A stretch of DNA of 64,000 bases, taken from the NCBI GenBank assembly GCA_963772365.1, contig CAVYXA010000001.1:1664001-1728000 (forward strand), written 5' to 3'. Within the stretch, counting starts at the first letter, position 1, and each line of letters begins with the position of its first letter. The stretch is from an uncultured Verrucomicrobiae bacterium. Lineage in GTDB: Bacteria; Verrucomicrobiota; Verrucomicrobiia; Chthoniobacterales; UBA10450. The notes beneath the pieces were generated by a model. That model saw only the letters and a program-made list of their open reading frames with translations. It made no database searches and was not told the origin of the DNA. Positions 58,362 to 64,000 of this stretch are shown here, in pieces. The position numbers and the translations under genes were made by a program.

Positions 58362-59978
58362 TCAGCGTAGCGCACCAACATTGGATTTGACGATCGCCGT
58401 GTCGGTGGCGTTGATGACACCACTGGCATTGATATCCGAGCGGAAATTCATCGCATCGAGCGGTTGACCGATATGCGACTTGCACAACGTGACATCGGAA
58501 GCGTTGACTTGGCCATTTCCATTGACATCACCGATTCGGACGCCCATCGGGATCATAACCGCGCCCTGGGTCGATCCATCATCCACATTGAAAAGCGTGA
58601 CCTGGACTGTGATCATGCCGGTGCCACCGGCCACACTTGTTAGTGGAATTGTGACCATATTACCGTTTACAGTAACCATGCCGCCGTTGCTCACTCCACC
58701 AGTTCCCACAATCCCCGGTCCAGCTGTTACCTGAGCCTGTGGATTTCCATTCACAGTGACTGGGCCGGCAAAGGTCAGCACCATCTGGTAATCATTCGTA
58801 GCGCCGCCGCTGCGACATTCGATTCCAACCGGACCAGTCAGCGGCAGATCGATATCGAAATCACCCGCAGCGCCGTGGATTTTTCGGGAAACGGCTCCGG
58901 TCGGAGTCGGCCCGATCGGCAACATGGCGTAGGCATGAACTGCGCCGTTGTAAACGCCGGTGCCAACGATGATGCCGGTATCGCTAATGCCAAGCGCCGA
59001 CGAGGAAGTATTCATCGACAGGTCCCATCCGTTTCCGATCGGAATCAAATCCGCGAGGCGATACGTGGTCGTCCCGTCATAGAGGAACGGAATTGAAAAC
59101 GCTGAGGAATCATTGCCGACCACCCAACCATCCGAGTTGACCGCGCGTGCGGATCCCTGGCTCGTGCCGGACGCCAGTGGAATCGGCTGGATGCCGTTTG
59201 CGTCCGACCAGATGAACGGCAGACCCGAGCCCTGATTCAGCATGCTCGATCCAACAACATGACCCGCGTTACTCACGCCGAACGCGAGGGCGCCGTTCAT
59301 CCCTGGCAATGCACCGACTTCGAAAGCCATGCTCTGGCCCATGTCATAAACGATACCAACATTTCGGGCGGCGTTGTTCGGATCGATCCCCTGCCCGGCA
59401 ATTCGGCCCGAATTATTGATGCCGAACGCGGTAAGAAAATAACTTCCGCCTGATGTCGTTTGCGTGATCACCGCAGCGCTCCCGCCGCTATAGATCACGC
59501 CGCGTTGCAGACTTCCGGCGTTAACCGAGCCGACTGCGATGCCTGATGCATTGACGCTATTTGCATCTCCCAATGTTTCACCCGCAGGCAAAGGAAGTTG
59601 CGATACGACGCCGTTCTGCCAAACGACAGGCAAGCGGCCGGAGCCGAATGATGTTGTCGATCCTGTCCCTACAACAGTGCCGCTGTCGTTCGCGCTATTC
59701 GAAACGCAATAACTGCGACTGGATAAGTTCGGCAGACCGACGATTCCTCCGCCGAGAGTCCACGTAAATGCTTGTGTGCCGCCGCTGCGAAATGAGCGTC
59801 CAACGCCGATTCCGGCCGGAGAGACGCCAAATCCCTGCGATGCGCTGTCGCCAGCTTGAACCAGGCCGATGTCGTAAATCTGGTATTGCGGCGTGCCGCC
59901 AAAGGCGTTTGGCGAAGCGGCGAAGATTGCGCAAACGAGAGAGCAAAACAAGATGGAGATAGCGGATTGAATTTTCAT
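58362..59978 (-). CDS. Secreted HAF-repeat-like protein with C-terminal dockerin-like module
   Basis: Signal peptide; A.(G/S)(V/I)N..G.(V/I)VG repeats; GDVNGNG.VN..D and DINASG.IN..D motifs. Confidence 0.75.
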   Translation of the reverse strand: MKIQSAISILFCSLVCAIFAASPNAFGGTPQYQIYDIGLVQAGDSASQGFGVSPAGIGVGRSFRSGGTQAFTWTLGGGIVGLPNLSSRSYCVSNSANDSGTVVGTGSTTSFGSGRLPVVWQNGVVSQLPLPAGETLGDANSVNASGIAVGSVNAGSLQRGVIYSGGSAAVITQTTSGGSYFLTAFGINNSGRIAGQGIDPNNAARNVGIVYDMGQSMAFEVGALPGMNGALAFGVSNAGHVVGSSMLNQGSGLPFIWSDANGIQPIPLASGTSQGSARAVNSDGWVVGNDSSAFSIPFLYDGTTTYRLADLIPIGNGWDLSMNTSSSALGISDTGIIVGTGVYNGAVHAYAMLPIGPTPTGAVSRKIHGAAGDFDIDLPLTGPVGIECRSGGATNDYQMVLTFAGPVTVNGNPQAQVTAGPGIVGTGGVSNGGMVTVNGNMVTIPLTSVAGGTGMITVQVTLFNVDDGSTQGAVMIPMGVRIGDVNGNGQVNASDVTLCKSHIGQPLDAMNFRSDINASGVINATDTAIVKSNVGALR

Positions 59979-60128
59979 GTGCGGAATTCCAGTCGAGTGA
60001 AAGATTGTATCCAGCTTTGAGAAAACCTTCCAAGCTTTTCCCGCCCGGACTCGGCAGCAAACCAGGCTCCGGGACTCTCCATCCTTTCTTGTCACTCGAT
60101 TGCGACTGTGGGAATCTTGCCTCCCGCC

Positions 60129-61193
60129 ATGCCGCGATTGCATCGACAAGATTACCGGGACATCGAACGAATCATCGAGTTTGATTTTGTCCGCGCGACA
60201 GAAGCCGCTGCGCTCAATTCCCTGCGGTGGCTCGGGCGCGGCGACAAGGAGGCGGCAGACGCTGCGGCCTGCGACGCCATGCGAGGAATGTTCGATTTGA
60301 TGAACATCTGTGGCGAGGTTGTTATCGGTGAAGGAATCAAAGACGAAGCTCCCGGGATTTTTAAAGGCGAACAACTTGGGACCTGGTTACCAGGCGCACC
60401 GCAGTTCGATATCGCCATCGATCCAATCGATGGCACCACTAACATCTCCAAGGGCGCGCCAAATTCGATCAGTTGTATCGCGGCAGCCAGCCCGGAAGAA
60501 GGAGTGAAAGTCGCTTTGCGAGACGTCCCCAGCTTTTACATGTCGAAGCTGGCCTACGGACCACGGGTGCTCGAATACATGAAAAAACGCGGTGATTCGC
60601 TTAACCTGGACGCGCCGATCGCCGAGACTCTGGCAATAGTTGCCCGCGCTTTGGAGAAACGGGTCCAGGATATCGTGGTGATGATGCTGGATCGACCACG
60701 GCACAAGGAAATTGTCGAACAGATTCGCGCGGCCGGCGCATCGTTACGTATGATCGGGGACGGCGATATCGCTGCGGCCATGGCGCCATCATTACCGGAG
60801 AGCAATGTCGATCTTTACATGGGCATCGGTGGTTCACCCGAAGCCGTATTGGCCGCGGCCGGGATCAAATGTCTCGGGGGAGAAATGCAGTGCAAGATGT
60901 GGCCACGTGACGAAAAAGAGAAAAAGAAGTTGATCGACGAAGGCTGGAAAAAAGATCTCGATTGCATCTATTGGGCCGACGACCTGGCTAATGGCCAGAA
61001 CATCGTTTTCTGCGCCACCGGAATTAGCGACAGCGCCCTTCTACGCGGAGTAAAAGGAATGGGAACAAAAGCCGTTACCCATTCCATTTTGATGCGAGCC
61101 AAAAGCAAGACCGTGCGTTTCATCCGCGCCCTGCACGATTTGCAAACCAAGACAATCCGGTTGCGTTCCGATAAAAGGGAACACTTGCTTTGA
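60129..61193 (+). CDS. glpX: Fructose-1,6-bisphosphatase class II
   Basis: RATEAAA, ADAAA, VIGEG, DPIDGT, DGD and GGSPE motifs. Confidence 0.95.
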   Translation: MPRLHRQDYRDIERIIEFDFVRATEAAALNSLRWLGRGDKEAADAAACDAMRGMFDLMNICGEVVIGEGIKDEAPGIFKGEQLGTWLPGAPQFDIAIDPIDGTTNISKGAPNSISCIAAASPEEGVKVALRDVPSFYMSKLAYGPRVLEYMKKRGDSLNLDAPIAETLAIVARALEKRVQDIVVMMLDRPRHKEIVEQIRAAGASLRMIGDGDIAAAMAPSLPESNVDLYMGIGGSPEAVLAAAGIKCLGGEMQCKMWPRDEKEKKKLIDEGWKKDLDCIYWADDLANGQNIVFCATGISDSALLRGVKGMGTKAVTHSILMRAKSKTVRFIRALHDLQTKTIRLRSDKREHLL

Positions 61194-61206
61194 GGAAGCC
61201 GCGGTA

Positions 61207-62085
61207 GTGTTTGTTCATTGTCAGGTCGGGGAGGCGAATTCCACAACCCTCACCTGGCGGCGAAATCGATTACGATACACCTACGACCGGGCCTCCAACG
61301 TGAAGAAGCGGATGAATTACAAGAACGGCTCGTTTGTCAATTACACTTACGACACCGCCGATCGGATGAGCGATCTGGACATTTATCTCTCGGCATCGGT
61401 CCGGTTCTCGCATGAGCATTTTACGCTGGACAATATGAACCGGCTCACCGCCGTCGCCCATACCCAGGGCAACACCACCAACGATTCATACAGCTATTAC
61501 GCGGATGGCCAATTGCACACTGCCGCCTACGGCTGGACCACACGGGGGTTCACCTACAATCTGGATGCCGCGGGTAATCGCACCAGTGTGATCGATCAGG
61601 GCGTGACCAAGAATTATACCCCGAATGCGCTCAACCAATACACCGCTGCCGGGACAGACGCGGTGGCCAACGGAAACGTCCACGAGATCTCGACCTACAA
61701 GGGTGTGCTTTACAAATATTATGGCGACACCTGGCTTTCTTCAGCCACTGCTTTGGTCAACAATGTCTCCACCAAGTACGAGCTGTTCTACGATGCACTG
61801 GGCCGATGCGTGGAGCACAAGACCACCGTCGGAACAAACAATCCCACGAAGAATTATTATCTGTTCGATGGGGAGCATTGGACGGTGGAATACGAGACCA
61901 ACGGCTCGACGATCAAGAGCACGATGGTCTATGGCCTCGGGATCGATGAAGTGATCGCCCGCGCGATTGCCGGTGGTCAATACTTCCTGCCGGATCGCAA
62001 TGCCAATATCGCGGTAGTCACCGACATTACCGCGGCGGTGCTGGAGTCGTATCGCTATGACGCATTCGGCTTGCCGTCAGGATAG
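61207..62085 (+). pseudogene. Rhs/YD-repeat core fragment, truncated at both ends
   Basis: YTYD..., Y.LDAAGNR, N.LNQY, YDALGR, YG.GIDE and YRYDAFG repeats; stops before the conserved core end, at the repeat at 62080. Confidence 0.8.
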
Positions 62086-62143
62086 AAAGATAGGGGTCAG
62101 GCATCAATTCTGGATAGAAAGATAGGGGTCAGGCATCAATTCT
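62080..62143 (+). repeat. Perfect 32-bp tandem duplication covering the element left end
   Basis: GGATAGAAAGATAGGGGTCAGGCATCAATTCT at 62080-62111 and 62112-62143. Confidence 0.9.
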
Positions 62144-62416
62144 TGACAAGTAGCACTGGTGGGGTAAAAGAGCGGCTGTGGCCCGTAGTATTTGCATCGA
62201 ATATCCGGGGGGTGCCCGCAAGGTTTGTATTGCAAAGGTGATTTGGGAGCAGACGGTGGTGTCACAAAAATGGTTGGCGGACCGACTTGGAATGAAGAGC
62301 GCAGCGAACGTGAGCCAGCAGCTGCGTCGGCACCGGCCAAAATCGAAGCGATCGGATATCCCGGCTTCACTGCATAAATGGCTCTCTTTAGTCAAGAATT
62401 GATGCCTGACCCCTAT
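62122..62416 (+). mobile_element. Miniature element 1: internally deleted Y1/RAYT-like transposase element with 26-bp inverted ends
   Basis: ATAGGGGTCAGGCATCAATTCTTGAC and its exact reverse complement at 62391-62416; ORF 62178-62402 fuses MARSICIEYPG to the C-terminus RKVCIAKVIW...SAANVSQQLRR. Confidence 0.85.
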
Positions 62417-62458
62417 TCCTATTCCCCTATTCCTATTCCCTATTCTATTCCATCGCCA

Positions 62459-62953
62459 ATGAGATCTCCCCGGTCAGCGATTGGGCTTATCGTGGCTGCA
62501 ATTCTATGCTTCGACATTGCGGCAATGGCTACGCCGGAAAAGCAGTATAACGTTCGATACCGGTTCCAAGTGACTGATCGGCCTGATCAGCAACGGTTCG
62601 TGTTGACTCTCAGATCCGCAGACAAGAGGCCCATCTGTATTTACCGCGACAATTGGCCAAATGGATTTGGCCAAGTCAATCTCGGCGCTATGCGAGTAAC
62701 CCTTAAATCGTCGGAGGGAGAAATACGTGCCCATGACACGAATTTTGGGTTTTGCGCAGGTGACGCAAGCTGCTACATCCGTATCTTGCCGGGGGGAACG
62801 TTGACCGGTTTTATCGGCTATGAGCAATTTGGTAAACCGAAGACAATTGCCAAACTCGCTCGCCGTGAATTGCGTTTCCGCGTCTCGCCTATTGTGTGCG
62901 AAAAATGGCCGCCACCGCCGCCGCGATTACCGCCCTACGCACGCGGCCGTTAA
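62459..62953 (+). CDS. Secreted hypothetical protein between element ends (possible cargo or immunity-like protein)
   Basis: 164-aa ORF with signal peptide and several Cys. Confidence 0.6.
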   Translation: MRSPRSAIGLIVAAILCFDIAAMATPEKQYNVRYRFQVTDRPDQQRFVLTLRSADKRPICIYRDNWPNGFGQVNLGAMRVTLKSSEGEIRAHDTNFGFCAGDASCYIRILPGGTLTGFIGYEQFGKPKTIAKLARRELRFRVSPIVCEKWPPPPPRLPPYARGR

Positions 62954-63022
62954 CGAGCGCCGGGGAGATAAGATAGAAGATAAAGATAGGGGTCAGAAGA
63001 TAAAGATAGGGGTATAAAGATA

Positions 63023-63185
63023 GGGGTCAGGCATCAATTCTTGACAAGCAGCACTGGGGTGGTAAAACTACCGGGCGAGTCTGGAACGGCAGGCGCACGA
63101 TGTCTCCAGAGCGGAGCAAGGCCTGCGAGCGGCCGGAATCACGCAACAAGAATTACCCAAGCTTTCCGGAGCCGACCTTCGGATG
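63023..63185 (+). mobile_element. Miniature element 2: left end plus an internal transposase fragment, no right end
   Basis: 23-bp end at 63023-63045; interior reads NYRASLERQAHDVSRAEQGLRAAGITQQELPKLSGADLR. Confidence 0.7.
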
Positions 63186-63293
63186 CCGGAATATTCCAAG
63201 CTCGACCAGCCATGACAATTCGGACGCTTGTTCTTACATGAAAACATATCGATTCCTTCGGATAGGGAAGATAGGATAGGGGTAGGGAAGATA

Positions 63294-63491
63294 GGGGTCA
63301 GGCATCAATTCTTGACAAGCAGCACTGGGGTGATAAAACTACCGGGCGAGTCTGGAACGGCAGGCGCACGATGAAGAGCGCAGCGAATATGAGCCAGCAG
63401 CTGCGTCGGCACCGGCCAAAATCGAAGCGATCGGATATCCCAGCTTCACTGCATAAATGGCTCTCTTCAGTCAAGAATTGATGCCTGACCC
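63294..63491 (+). mobile_element. Miniature element 3 with both inverted ends
   Basis: Left end 63294-63316, right end 63470-63491; left half is near-identical to element 2 and right half to element 1. Confidence 0.85.
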
Positions 63492-63556
63492 TACTCTTCC
63501 TACTCTTGACCCGTATTCTTTCTCTCCTAAGTTCGTTTCGACGAGCCGCCAAAACC

Positions 63557-63582
63557 AGCACGCGAGGGCGCGTGCGCTACCC
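63557..63582 (-). repeat. GTAG-type REP hairpin
   Basis: Minus strand reads GGGTAGCGCACGCGCCCTCGCGTGCT. Confidence 0.65.
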
Positions 63583-63846
63583 TAACGAACCGAATAGCAA
63601 TCCTAGGCCGTAGGTGACGACGGCGACGATGACGCCGATCCAGGTCATTTCCAGGCCGGAAGCCCACCAGGAGCGGATCGTGATTAGTGATTTTAAGGCG
63701 CCGACGGCAAAATGGGCGAGCAGACTAATCGCAAATGACTCGAGCACGGCGTCGAGTCCGCCGGAGAAAAAGAATGGAATGATCGGAACGAATGCACCGA
63801 TCGCGGTGGAAATTGCGGCCGAGAATGCTGACGTCCAATAATTCGG
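63577..63846 (-). pseudogene. VIT1/CCC1 family transporter, C-terminal 90 codons cut off by the element end
   Basis: Hand translation PNYWTSAFSAAISTAIGAFVPIIPFFF...HFAVGALKS..TIRSWWASGLEM...VTYGLG; absent from the ORF track. Confidence 0.75.
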
Positions 63847-63857
63847 AATAGAGAATA

Positions 63858-64000
63858 GGGGTCAGGCATCAATTCTTGACAGGATAGAGTTAGGGTAGTA
63901 GTGAAGGCGAGTGGCGCGCAGTATTCGAATCGAGTCTCCCGGTGCTTTCTATCACGTGATGGCGCGTGGGAATCGGCGGGAAGCGATTTTCCGGAGCGAG
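63858..64000 (+). mobile_element. Left end of a putative autonomous Y1/RAYT-like element (continues beyond the window)
   Basis: Same 23-bp end at 63858-63880, followed by the transposase start. Confidence 0.8.
63911..64000 (+). CDS. Y1 HUH tyrosine transposase (RAYT / IS200-like), N-terminus
   Basis: MARSIRIESPGAFYHVMARGNRREAIFRSE is typical of the Y1_Tnp N-terminus. Confidence 0.85.
   Translation, partial: MARSIRIESPGAFYHVMARGNRREAIFRSE

What the first reader, a model, noticed from the sequence alone, without database searches (positions are those of the whole stretch)
61207..64000. Y1/HUH transposase element with hairpin inverted ends, miniature derivatives and interleaved cargo: candidate gene-capture array
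Seen: GGGGTCAGGCATCAATTCTTGAC occurs forward at 62125, 63023, 63294 and 63858 (partial copy at 62093) and inverted at 62391 and 63470 (the latter one base short). The last copy precedes a RAYT-like Y1 transposase start; the others enclose remnants of a close relative. Between them lie unrelated pieces: an Rhs core fragment, an intact secreted protein gene, about 75 bp of orphan sequence and a VIT1 fragment. Known: IS200/IS605 HUH elements lack terminal inverted repeats, and RAYTs are usually regarded as single-copy domesticated genes that spread REPs rather than themselves. Inference: here the end-transposase-end unit is itself copied and associated with acquiring or shuffling DNA at one locus, like a cassette array driven by an HUH enzyme.
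Basis: partly seen in the sequence, partly recalled or inferred. Interest (0 to 1): 0.9.

Follow-up and report, generated by a model that had tools for sequence, protein, structure and literature searches.

The report
TIRtron ends build Rhs toxin arrays
A little-studied single-strand DNA-cutting mobile element and its shrunken copies sit at the joints of bacterial toxin-immunity gene arrays here and in related soil bacteria, and may be the missing enzyme that adds new modules to such arrays.

Summary
The repeats are real. Extending the contig gives a complete 1,111-bp element with 23-bp terminal inverted repeats (TIRs) and a 348-aa Y1 HUH enzyme carrying a DnaA-domain-IV-like tail. This is a TIRtron/TIRYT (TnpA-Y1 subclass 2.1), named in 2013, function unknown; TIR-flanked HUH genes are therefore not new, and the end is not a stable hairpin. 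The cargo is mostly not unrelated: two Rhs fragments and an orphan Rhs-immunity homologue, plus a relocated VIT1 piece, in a 5.06-kb island absent from a congeneric genome. Beyond the window: 10 of 15 family TIRYT loci lie 1.2-3 kb downstream of an Rhs core; 18 of 18 such genes share the Rhs strand, while ordinary IS split 3:4. Orphan Rhs modules start at a TIR end in 7 of 33 cases (1% by chance). Ends carry tandem re-copies of their own junction with fixed break hotspots and often no microhomology. Best model: one-ended capture, with homology supplying one junction and the TIR end the other, pushing old modules downstream. Rival: accumulation plus adjacent deletion. Most phylum-wide TIRtrons (70 of 80) show no Rhs nearby. 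No biochemistry.

The parts
60108..61193 (+). glpX, left flank of the island
   Evidence: PF03320 381 bits; followed 15 bp later by the crystallin gene in G001
61203..61258 (+). First 56 bp of a ~175-bp dispersed repeat ('repeat A'); a 44-bp piece of it also opens the sister array on contig C3; possible homology anchor (inferred)
61258..62079 (+). Rhs YD-repeat fragment, cut off at its 3' side by the first left-end junction; 92% identical to the Rhs on C3:406269-405422
62080..62124 (+). Junction re-copy: 13-nt flank + first 19 nt of the TIR + 13-nt flank, no microhomology
62125..62413 (+). Mini-element 1 (289 bp): sibling left end joined to the last 201 bp of the full element (99.5%); 99.3% identical to a mini on C3:399204-398907
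62459..62953 (+). Secreted 164-aa protein, probable orphan Rhs immunity gene
   Evidence: homologues directly follow an HExxH-type Rhs C-terminal domain in G016, G118, G119 and follow an Rhs-linked TIRYT in G021; 3 other homologues had no Rhs core in the 3 kb held
63023..63175 (+). Left end plus internal transposase fragment (element positions 791-910, 87%), preceded by junction re-copies
63176..63262 (.). 87-bp piece of unknown origin, 47% G+C
63294..63492 (+). Mini-element 3 (199 bp): left end, element 791-825, element 990-1110
63483..63846 (-). Right-end junction plus 3' piece of VIT1 (coding 63577-63846) and a REP-like repeat (63529-63582); copy of the C3 VIT1 junction: first 171 bp identical, remaining 193 bp 87.6% identical
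63858..64000 (+). Start of the full 1,111-bp TIRtron: TIR 63858-63880, gene from 63911. Beyond the window (numbers continue along G000 C1): gene ends 64957, right TIR 64946-64968; then IS5-like fragment (64971-65432, -), unknown 202-aa ORF (65497-66105), Rhs core fragment (66104-66226) and the crystallin gene at 66309, which closes the island

Best explanation
The region is a decayed Rhs toxin-immunity island containing one intact TIRtron (TIRYT, TnpA-Y1 subclass 2.1) and internally deleted derivatives. SHOWN: identity of the element; the island is an insertion; TIR ends abut truncated Rhs, immunity and VIT1 pieces; across the family, TIRtrons lie downstream of and on the same strand as Rhs genes, and some orphan modules begin a few bases outside a right end. 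INFERRED: the DnaA-IV-like tail binds the TIR as double-stranded DNA; the Y1 domain nicks one strand 4-14 nt outside the TIR or at fixed points inside it (after base 7-8, base 19) and transfers that strand to another 3' end. Futile cycles give the tandem junction copies and short adjacent deletions. Productive events are one-ended: incoming DNA [conserved core - new toxin tip - immunity - TIR end] is anchored on its left by homologous recombination with the resident core, and the right TIR end is joined to the resident chromosome upstream of the crossover. That duplicates a stretch of resident core, puts the new tip in the expressed position and pushes the old tip and immunity gene downstream as an orphan that starts at a TIR end. 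Only donors with an end downstream of the immunity gene can be captured so, which would explain the position and strand bias. The window is a scrambled sister of the VIT1-linked array on C3, moved to the glpX site with 364 bp of VIT1 flank.
For: Element. Island. Rhs link from the TIRYT side: 10 of 15 testable loci in 7 family genomes, 1.2-3.0 kb downstream of an Rhs core, where such windows are ~0.5% of those genomes. From the Rhs side: 6 of 31 loci in 12 genomes picked without regard to TIRs, 0 in 143 kb of upstream control; 15 of 24 in six TIR-bearing genomes; TIRYT on the Rhs strand at 18 of 18 loci within 5 kb, against 3 same and 4 opposite for ordinary IS. Orphan starts at TIR-like ends 7 of 33 vs 199 of 20,000 random positions; in G188 two orphans with 98.5-98.9% identical cores and different tips start 12 nt past a right end. 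L190: gene X - Rhs - immunity - TIRtron - X', X' starting ~12 nt past the right junction, 7 mismatches in the first 316 bp and clearly more diverged after about 350 bp. Junction copies at 35 of 258 ends vs 6 of 4,762 controls; 15 of 31 simple joins without microhomology; 17.5 of 31 break weight at TIR bases 7-8; flank side 4-15 nt, peak 12-13. Strain series at one site: 0, 1 and 2 extra junction units and a 62-bp deletion starting within 9 nt of the right end.
Against: No biochemistry or reads. 70 of 80 phylum-wide TIRYT loci have no Rhs sign in the flank held and sit among unrelated genes (only 44 had 4 kb upstream). 26 of 33 orphan starts fail the fixed rule and 5 of the 7 that pass are from one genome, G188; arrays with no TIR exist (e.g. 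L182, L281, L283, L286). 4 of the 6 unbiased positives are from one genome, G019. Ordinary IS also gather downstream of Rhs (7 of 55 loci, 0 upstream). A second TIRYT on the opposite strand lies just beyond 5 kb at L079. Orphan-to-main core identity is only 76-94% in several arrays. Genomes are kin, so counts overstate independence. The window itself is too scrambled to show the model alone.
Confidence: 0.52

Rival explanations
1. Accumulation and erosion: TIRtrons are weakly mobile selfish elements that land in Rhs islands as other IS do (perhaps kept when transcribed with the Rhs operon); their ends then cause adjacent deletions that truncate neighbouring tandem Rhs copies, so orphans start at ends without any capture.
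For: Adjacent deletion is directly seen (62 bp); the window Rhs fragment is cut at a left end; ordinary IS are enriched downstream of Rhs too; tandem full-length Rhs genes exist in G100 (open frames of 1589 and 1639 aa); most TIRtrons are far from Rhs; a 98% identical element occurs in two unrelated contexts.
Against: Does not explain the relocated right-end-plus-VIT1 piece, the X/X' duplication bracketing a whole Rhs-TIRtron unit, or 18 of 18 same-strand against 3:4 for IS without extra assumptions.
Confidence: 0.28
2. Circle route: an end attacks DNA upstream in the same chromosome and excises a circle [core piece - tip - immunity - element]; the circle re-enters this or another cell by one homologous crossover. 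Same enzyme and same outcome, but the TIR junction is made in the donor.
For: Fits [L..R][VIT1 piece][L..R] in the window and the G188 array order; ssDNA circles are the intermediates of IS200/IS605 Y1 enzymes (abstract of PMC6006769 as listed).
Against: A single crossover predicts uniform donor-recipient divergence across the duplicated stretch; X/X' and the VIT1 piece are near-identical next to the end and diverged farther away.
Confidence: 0.14
3. Integron-like site-specific system: TIRs act as att sites carried by each cassette, and TIRYT recombines TIR with TIR.
For: Directly repeated lone ends with genes between them in G001 and L218; GTCA-N12-TGAC symmetry with break hotspots at the inner edges.
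Against: Junctions are TIR-to-non-TIR at variable positions; pieces are gene fragments of any length; spacers differ between left and right ends of one element.
Confidence: 0.04
4. Misassembly of the C3 array into C1.
For: Repeat-rich region; the structure could not be checked against reads.
Against: Shared pieces are 87-93% identical, not identical, each junction is distinct, both outer flanks match the G001 empty site, and the same architecture recurs in other genomes.
Confidence: 0.02

Closest known systems
TIRtron / TIRYT (Di Nocera et al. 2013, PMC3733652; passages read) = TnpA-Y1 subclass 2.1 (Quentin et al. 2018, PMC6006769; passages and section 20 read)
   Same: Y1 HUH gene between TIRs carrying GGGGWSAS; NH[YF]H and Y[IV]HLNP motifs; C-terminal DnaA_C-like HTH; TIR copies as singles, dimers and groups elsewhere in the genome; low gene copy number.
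   Different: The passages read give no function, no Rhs link ('rhs' 0 times in the main text of PMC3733652), no junction re-copies, no flank relocation and no empty-site comparison. Their figures and supplements were not seen.
TnpA-REP / RAYT-REP systems (PMC8266576 and PMC5581495; passages read)
   Same: Same catalytic fold (4er8, Z 15.7); cleavage at some distance 5' or 3' of the bound repeat and transfer to an attacking 3'-OH, as the junctions here imply.
   Different: No stable hairpin and no GTAG guide here; an added dsDNA-binding-type domain; the gene itself moves with its ends; NF047646 scores 63.4, below its cut-off of 80.
IS200/IS605 (IS608, ISDra2)
   Same: Y1 HUH core; no clear target duplication.
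   Different: Symmetric TIRs instead of subterminal hairpins, 348 aa instead of about 150, ragged ends, NF033573 21.4 against a cut-off of 55.
Rhs C-terminal displacement and homology-facilitated illegitimate recombination in effector-immunity arrays (Kirchberger et al. 2017, PMC5361080, passages read; Koskiniemi et al. 2014, PMC3967940, passages read)
   Same: New module anchored by homology, old module pushed downstream as an orphan.
   Different: That paper says no integrase-like enzyme was in evidence for the illegitimate junction; here a specific end sequence and enzyme are candidates, and a stretch of resident core appears duplicated rather than deleted.
rAID-1 immunity arrays of Bacteroidales (10.1101/471110; abstract and opening read) and integrons
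   Same: Enzyme gene beside a growing array of interbacterial-defence genes.
   Different: Those are recombinase-associated (tyrosine recombinase, recalled); here an HUH enzyme, fragment-sized pieces, and most elements stand outside arrays.

Membership tests
TIRtron/TIRYT (TnpA-Y1 subclass 2.1) | Y1 core with HUH motif NH[VYF]H and Y[IV]xLNP | tested here: met
   PF01797 46.2 bits, cut-off 23; N58, H59, H61, Y120, H122, L123, N124 invariant in 24 homologues (P0001 numbering)
TIRtron/TIRYT (TnpA-Y1 subclass 2.1) | Gene flanked by TIRs with GGGGWSAS | tested here: met
   GGGGTCAG-led 23-mers at 63858 and extended 64968; TIR-like pairs at 44 of 80 homologous loci, others cut by contig ends or unmatched
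TIRtron/TIRYT (TnpA-Y1 subclass 2.1) | C-terminal HTH of the Bac_DnaA_C type | tested here: met
   model residues 258-344 align with DnaA domain IV, Z 8.1, rmsd 3.3, 85 residues; PF08299 hits 5 of 24 homologues but not this protein
TIRtron/TIRYT (TnpA-Y1 subclass 2.1) | Placement in the published subclass 2.1 tree or HMM | not tested
   the published alignments and HMMs were not fetched
REPtron (TnpA-REP with REP) | Flanking REP hairpins with a 5' GTAG-type tetranucleotide | tested here: not met
   end folds at -1.1 kcal/mol, z -0.96; no GTAG at its foot (sequence)
IS200/IS605 | Short TnpA, subterminal hairpins, no TIR, many identical copies | tested here: not met
MITE-like non-autonomous derivatives | Both ends kept, interior deleted, copies at more than one locus | tested here: met
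   mini 1 is 99.3% identical at C1 and C3; minis of about 100-350 bp in G000, G001, G061, G188
MITE-like non-autonomous derivatives | Target-site duplication | tested here: inconclusive
   of 51 end pairs 30 have none, 19 have 2 bp (a self-complementary TA cannot be told from an extension of the inverted repeat), 2 have 3-5 bp
Integron / rAID-like cassette array | Site-specific recombinase with a conserved site on each whole-gene cassette | tested here: not met
   HUH enzyme; variable breakpoints and gene fragments
Rhs orphan toxin-immunity array | Core fragments followed by variable tips and immunity genes | tested here: met
   clear on C3 (3 TIGR03696 hits); in the window only remnants: two Rhs fragments and an immunity homologue, no intact tip
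TIRtron/TIRYT (TnpA-Y1 subclass 2.1) | Cleavage and strand transfer at the TIR | not testable with these tools
   needs purified enzyme; no such data appeared in the passages read

The most novel reading that the evidence does not exclude
TIRYT is a dedicated HUH 'one-ended integrase': homologous recombination makes one junction and the TIR end makes the other, so incoming toxin-immunity (or other paralogue-anchored) modules are added without loss of the old ones. It would be the missing enzyme for Rhs C-terminal displacement in these lineages and a first function for the second-largest TnpA-Y1 subclass (14.9% of strains in PMC6006769).
Probability: 0.4. Interest if true: 0.9.

Novelty: new variant of a known kind. 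Interest (0 to 1): 0.7.

Why it matters
Subclass 2.1 Y1 enzymes are widespread and, in what I read, have no function or substrate model. Separately, orphan Rhs and effector-immunity arrays are thought to grow by homology-anchored illegitimate recombination with no known enzyme (PMC5361080). The junction data give concrete, testable cut positions and a genomic role that would link the two questions. If true, it is also an insertion chemistry needing only one homology arm and a 23-bp end.

Tried and rejected
Hairpin ends: folding no better than shuffles. Multi-copy full element in this genome: one full gene only; the two full copies in G026 are 87% identical. Conserved cleavage dinucleotide on the flank side (such as C|T): none evident by eye in the joins. 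A clean empty site for a lone element: not found; L159 shares the left flank of L153 but holds other inserts. Reads: no run was listed, so none were laid. Sequence search of the C-terminal domain in solved structures: nothing below E 0.25. ESM Atlas for the secreted protein and the 202-aa ORF: only unnamed clusters. Cargo-type enrichment beside TIRtrons phylum-wide: 250 neighbouring ORFs showed scattered families, no dominant class; no formal background was run. Earlier findings of the scan: five answered look-ups, nothing shown. Literature searches for a TIRYT-Rhs link listed nothing that describes it; the one paper holding Rhs+orphan+transposase+RAYT (10.1101/2024.03.05.583533) was seen as a listing only; the library lacks most subscription papers.
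Full report
1. Observation. The window is G000 C1:1664001-1728000 of a 3.35-Mb, six-contig genome. Reading on, the last copy opens a 1,111-bp unit closed by an inverted copy at extended position 64946-64968 and holding a 348-aa ORF. The ends are not hairpins in any useful sense: -1.1 kcal/mol, z -0.96. The lineage is probably Chthoniobacterales (Verrucomicrobiota); this is inferred from the titles of the nearest named homologues, not tested.

2. The element. The protein matches PF01797 above its cut-off and falls below the cut-offs of the RAYT and IS200 equivalogs. HUH histidines and the YxHLN tyrosine are invariant in 24 homologues. The model (pLDDT 84) is closest to TnpA-REP 4er8, and residues 258-344 align with DnaA domain IV (Z 8.1). 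With GGGGWSAS-type TIRs this meets the description of TIRtrons (PMC3733652, passages) and subclass 2.1 (PMC6006769, section 20 and passages). The word TIRYT is in two works of the library and TIRtron in one. The genome has one full gene and 20 ends by a fixed pattern, with 0 for the reversed control. The pattern was found in 60 of 211 family genomes and the protein in 26 of 61 relatives (both tallies include G000 and the unpublished G008, the first also the unpublished G169 and G179; apart from the denominator, no other claim rests on these).

3. The locus. In the congeneric G001, glpX is followed after 15 bp by the crystallin gene region; here 5.06 kb lie between them. A second island on C3, between a permease gene and an intact VIT1 (1.4 kb apart in G020, about 8.9 kb here), has the same plan: piece of repeat A, Rhs core, tips and immunity-like genes, minis, VIT1 3' end. 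The window's Rhs piece is 92% identical to it, mini 1 is 99.3% identical, and the VIT1 piece carries the same right-end junction, identical for 171 bp and 87.6% thereafter. So an end moved together with 364 bp of its flank. The secreted gene has homologues in 7 of 250 other family genomes; in three they directly follow an HExxH-type Rhs tip, in one they follow an Rhs-linked TIRYT, in three no Rhs core was within the 3 kb held. I read it as an orphan immunity gene. The cargo is thus mainly Rhs material.

4. Rhs association. From the enzyme side: one search gave 17 family loci outside G000 and G008 (my grouping of its rows); two at contig starts were dropped as untestable; 10 of the remaining 15 (7 genomes) lie 1.2-3.0 kb downstream of a TIGR03696 hit on the same strand, where such windows make up about 0.5% of those genomes. 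From the Rhs side: in 17 genomes taken from the relatives list for contiguity, 12 had Rhs; 33 loci were fetched, 2 had no core by my local HMM, and 6 of 31 had a TIRYT hit within 5 kb downstream (G002, G009, four in G019), with none in 143 kb of upstream control. In six genomes chosen because they bear TIRs, 15 of 24 loci scored. At all 18 loci with a TIRYT hit within 5 kb it is on the Rhs strand; one opposite-strand gene lies just beyond 5 kb at L079. A rough control with eight IS queries found ordinary IS downstream at 7 of 55 loci, 3 same-strand and 4 opposite: islands do collect IS, but without the strand bias. Phylum-wide the link is weaker: 9 of 80 loci have an Rhs core hit, all same-strand, and L207 adds Rhs repeats right after the element; the rest sit among varied genes. 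By my hand count of the ORF list, about 43 of 68 nearest upstream ORFs are same-strand, so some general strand bias exists. Kin are not independent, and I give no weight to P-values.

5. Module boundaries. In G188 (L110) a long Rhs is followed by two orphans whose cores are 98.9% and 98.5% identical over 3.0 and 1.8 kb, each with a different tip, each starting 12 nt past the right end of a mini; a full TIRtron closes the array. By a fixed rule, 7 of 33 measurable orphan starts are at a TIR-like end against 199 of 20,000 random positions; 5 of the 7 are in G188, and four further cores had no measurable start. Further cases seen by eye and not counted: L112 (two), L194, L292, L327, L328, L312, L243. 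At L190 an ICMT-family gene X precedes the Rhs and reappears about 12 nt past the right junction, with 7 mismatches in the first 316 bp and marked divergence after about 350 bp: the pattern expected if the left junction was a crossover in X and the right end was joined to the resident X upstream of it. A TIRtron also abuts the truncated last copy of a cyclase-TPR paralogue array in G025, so the behaviour need not be Rhs-specific.

6. Junction signature. 35 of 258 distinct ends carry one or more tandem re-copies of the flank-TIR junction, against 6 of 4,762 GGGGW controls. Of 31 simple joins, 15 have no microhomology, which argues against polymerase slippage; breaks concentrate after TIR bases 7-8 (weight 17.5 of 31), with four joins at base 19 among all 48; the flank part is 4-15 nt, peaking at 12-13 (the earlier, looser count was 31 of 154). 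The same distance separates right ends from orphan starts. Metagenome contigs of a sister element show 0, 1 and 2 extra units at one site, a 62-bp deletion starting within 9 nt of the right end, and a 98% identical copy with both flanks different. TnpA-REP is known to cut at a distance from its bound repeat and to be resolved by an added 3'-OH (PMC8266576, passages), which makes nick, extend and rejoin chemically reasonable; that this enzyme does so is inferred.

7. Mechanism and rivals. I favour one-ended, homology-anchored capture (0.52): it accounts for orphan starts, near-identical duplicated cores, the X/X' pattern and the downstream, same-strand position. Accumulation with adjacent deletion (0.28) explains much of the window and needs no capture, but not the relocated VIT1 junction or X/X'. 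A circle route (0.14) uses the same enzyme. Integron-like TIR-by-TIR exchange (0.04) and misassembly (0.02; not checked against reads) are unlikely.

8. Relation to what is known. The element class is known; its role is not, in what I read. Homology-facilitated illegitimate recombination has been proposed for Rhs and effector-immunity arrays, with the remark that no integrase-like enzyme was in evidence (PMC5361080, passages). A 2026 preprint on Stenotrophomonas Rhs clusters does not use the word transposase in its main text (10.64898/2026.07.13.738213, passages), and 10.1101/2024.07.17.603846 treats RAYT and Rhs separately (passages). Searches listed no description of a TIRYT-Rhs link; figures and supplements of PMC3733652 and PMC6006769, which might list gene neighbours, were not seen. 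The association of H-repeat (ISAs1) elements with E. coli Rhs loci is recalled, not from a call. Verdict: new variant of a known kind, interest 0.7; the window is an untidy example of a pattern that is clearer in relatives.

Noticed in passing
G000 C3:398907 and about 401770; L067 6153 and 9978; L185 6927; L183 8345: IS3- and IS4-type elements appear inserted inside TIR sequences several times, recalling IS that target REPs (recalled).
   Followed up: partly
L063 (G001 C6:1227940, 1230269, 1231285); L064; L007 (G000 C5:293836-298789): Lone TIR ends repeated in direct orientation with unrelated genes between them (in L063 with a shared 30-40-nt tail, in a genome with no full TIRYT hit).
   Followed up: no
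L068 (G025 C1:127-137 kb): TIRtron left end abuts the truncated fourth copy of a tandem cyclase-TPR paralogue array.
   Followed up: partly
L110, L112, L257: Two or three TIR families (different 11-12-nt spacers) are nested in the same arrays, often with a conserved short tail beginning CGGCGTCATCGCCCAAGG.
   Followed up: no
all ends: The six bases outside left and right ends of one element resemble each other as inverted copies more than shuffled pairs do (3.14 vs 2.53 matches, 0 of 2,000 shuffles), hinting that one end's flank is copied onto the other.
   Followed up: partly
G188 C1:694.6-726 kb: The G188 Rhs-TIRtron array lies beside the same permease gene that flanks the G000 C3 array, in the opposite orientation, with VIT1 at 724-726 kb: possibly an old hotspot.
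   Followed up: no
window 61203-61258 and 63529-63582: Two other dispersed palindromic repeat families: a ~175-bp repeat with four near-complete copies elsewhere, and a ~54-bp REP-like repeat with many copies.
   Followed up: partly
L218 4884-5939: In a Kiritimatiellaeota genome, directly repeated left-type ends are followed at once by an Rhs core fragment (twice).
   Followed up: no
window 58362-59980 (-): Secreted protein with repeat-like N-terminal part and a dockerin-like C-terminus (by eye) upstream of glpX; not part of the finding.
   Followed up: no
G000 C3:669.8-672.0 kb, C2:55.9 kb, C1:1140.4 kb: Lone or outward-facing ends of a sibling TIR beside small genes that by eye look like PEP-CTERM and toxin-antitoxin genes; not scanned.
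   Followed up: no
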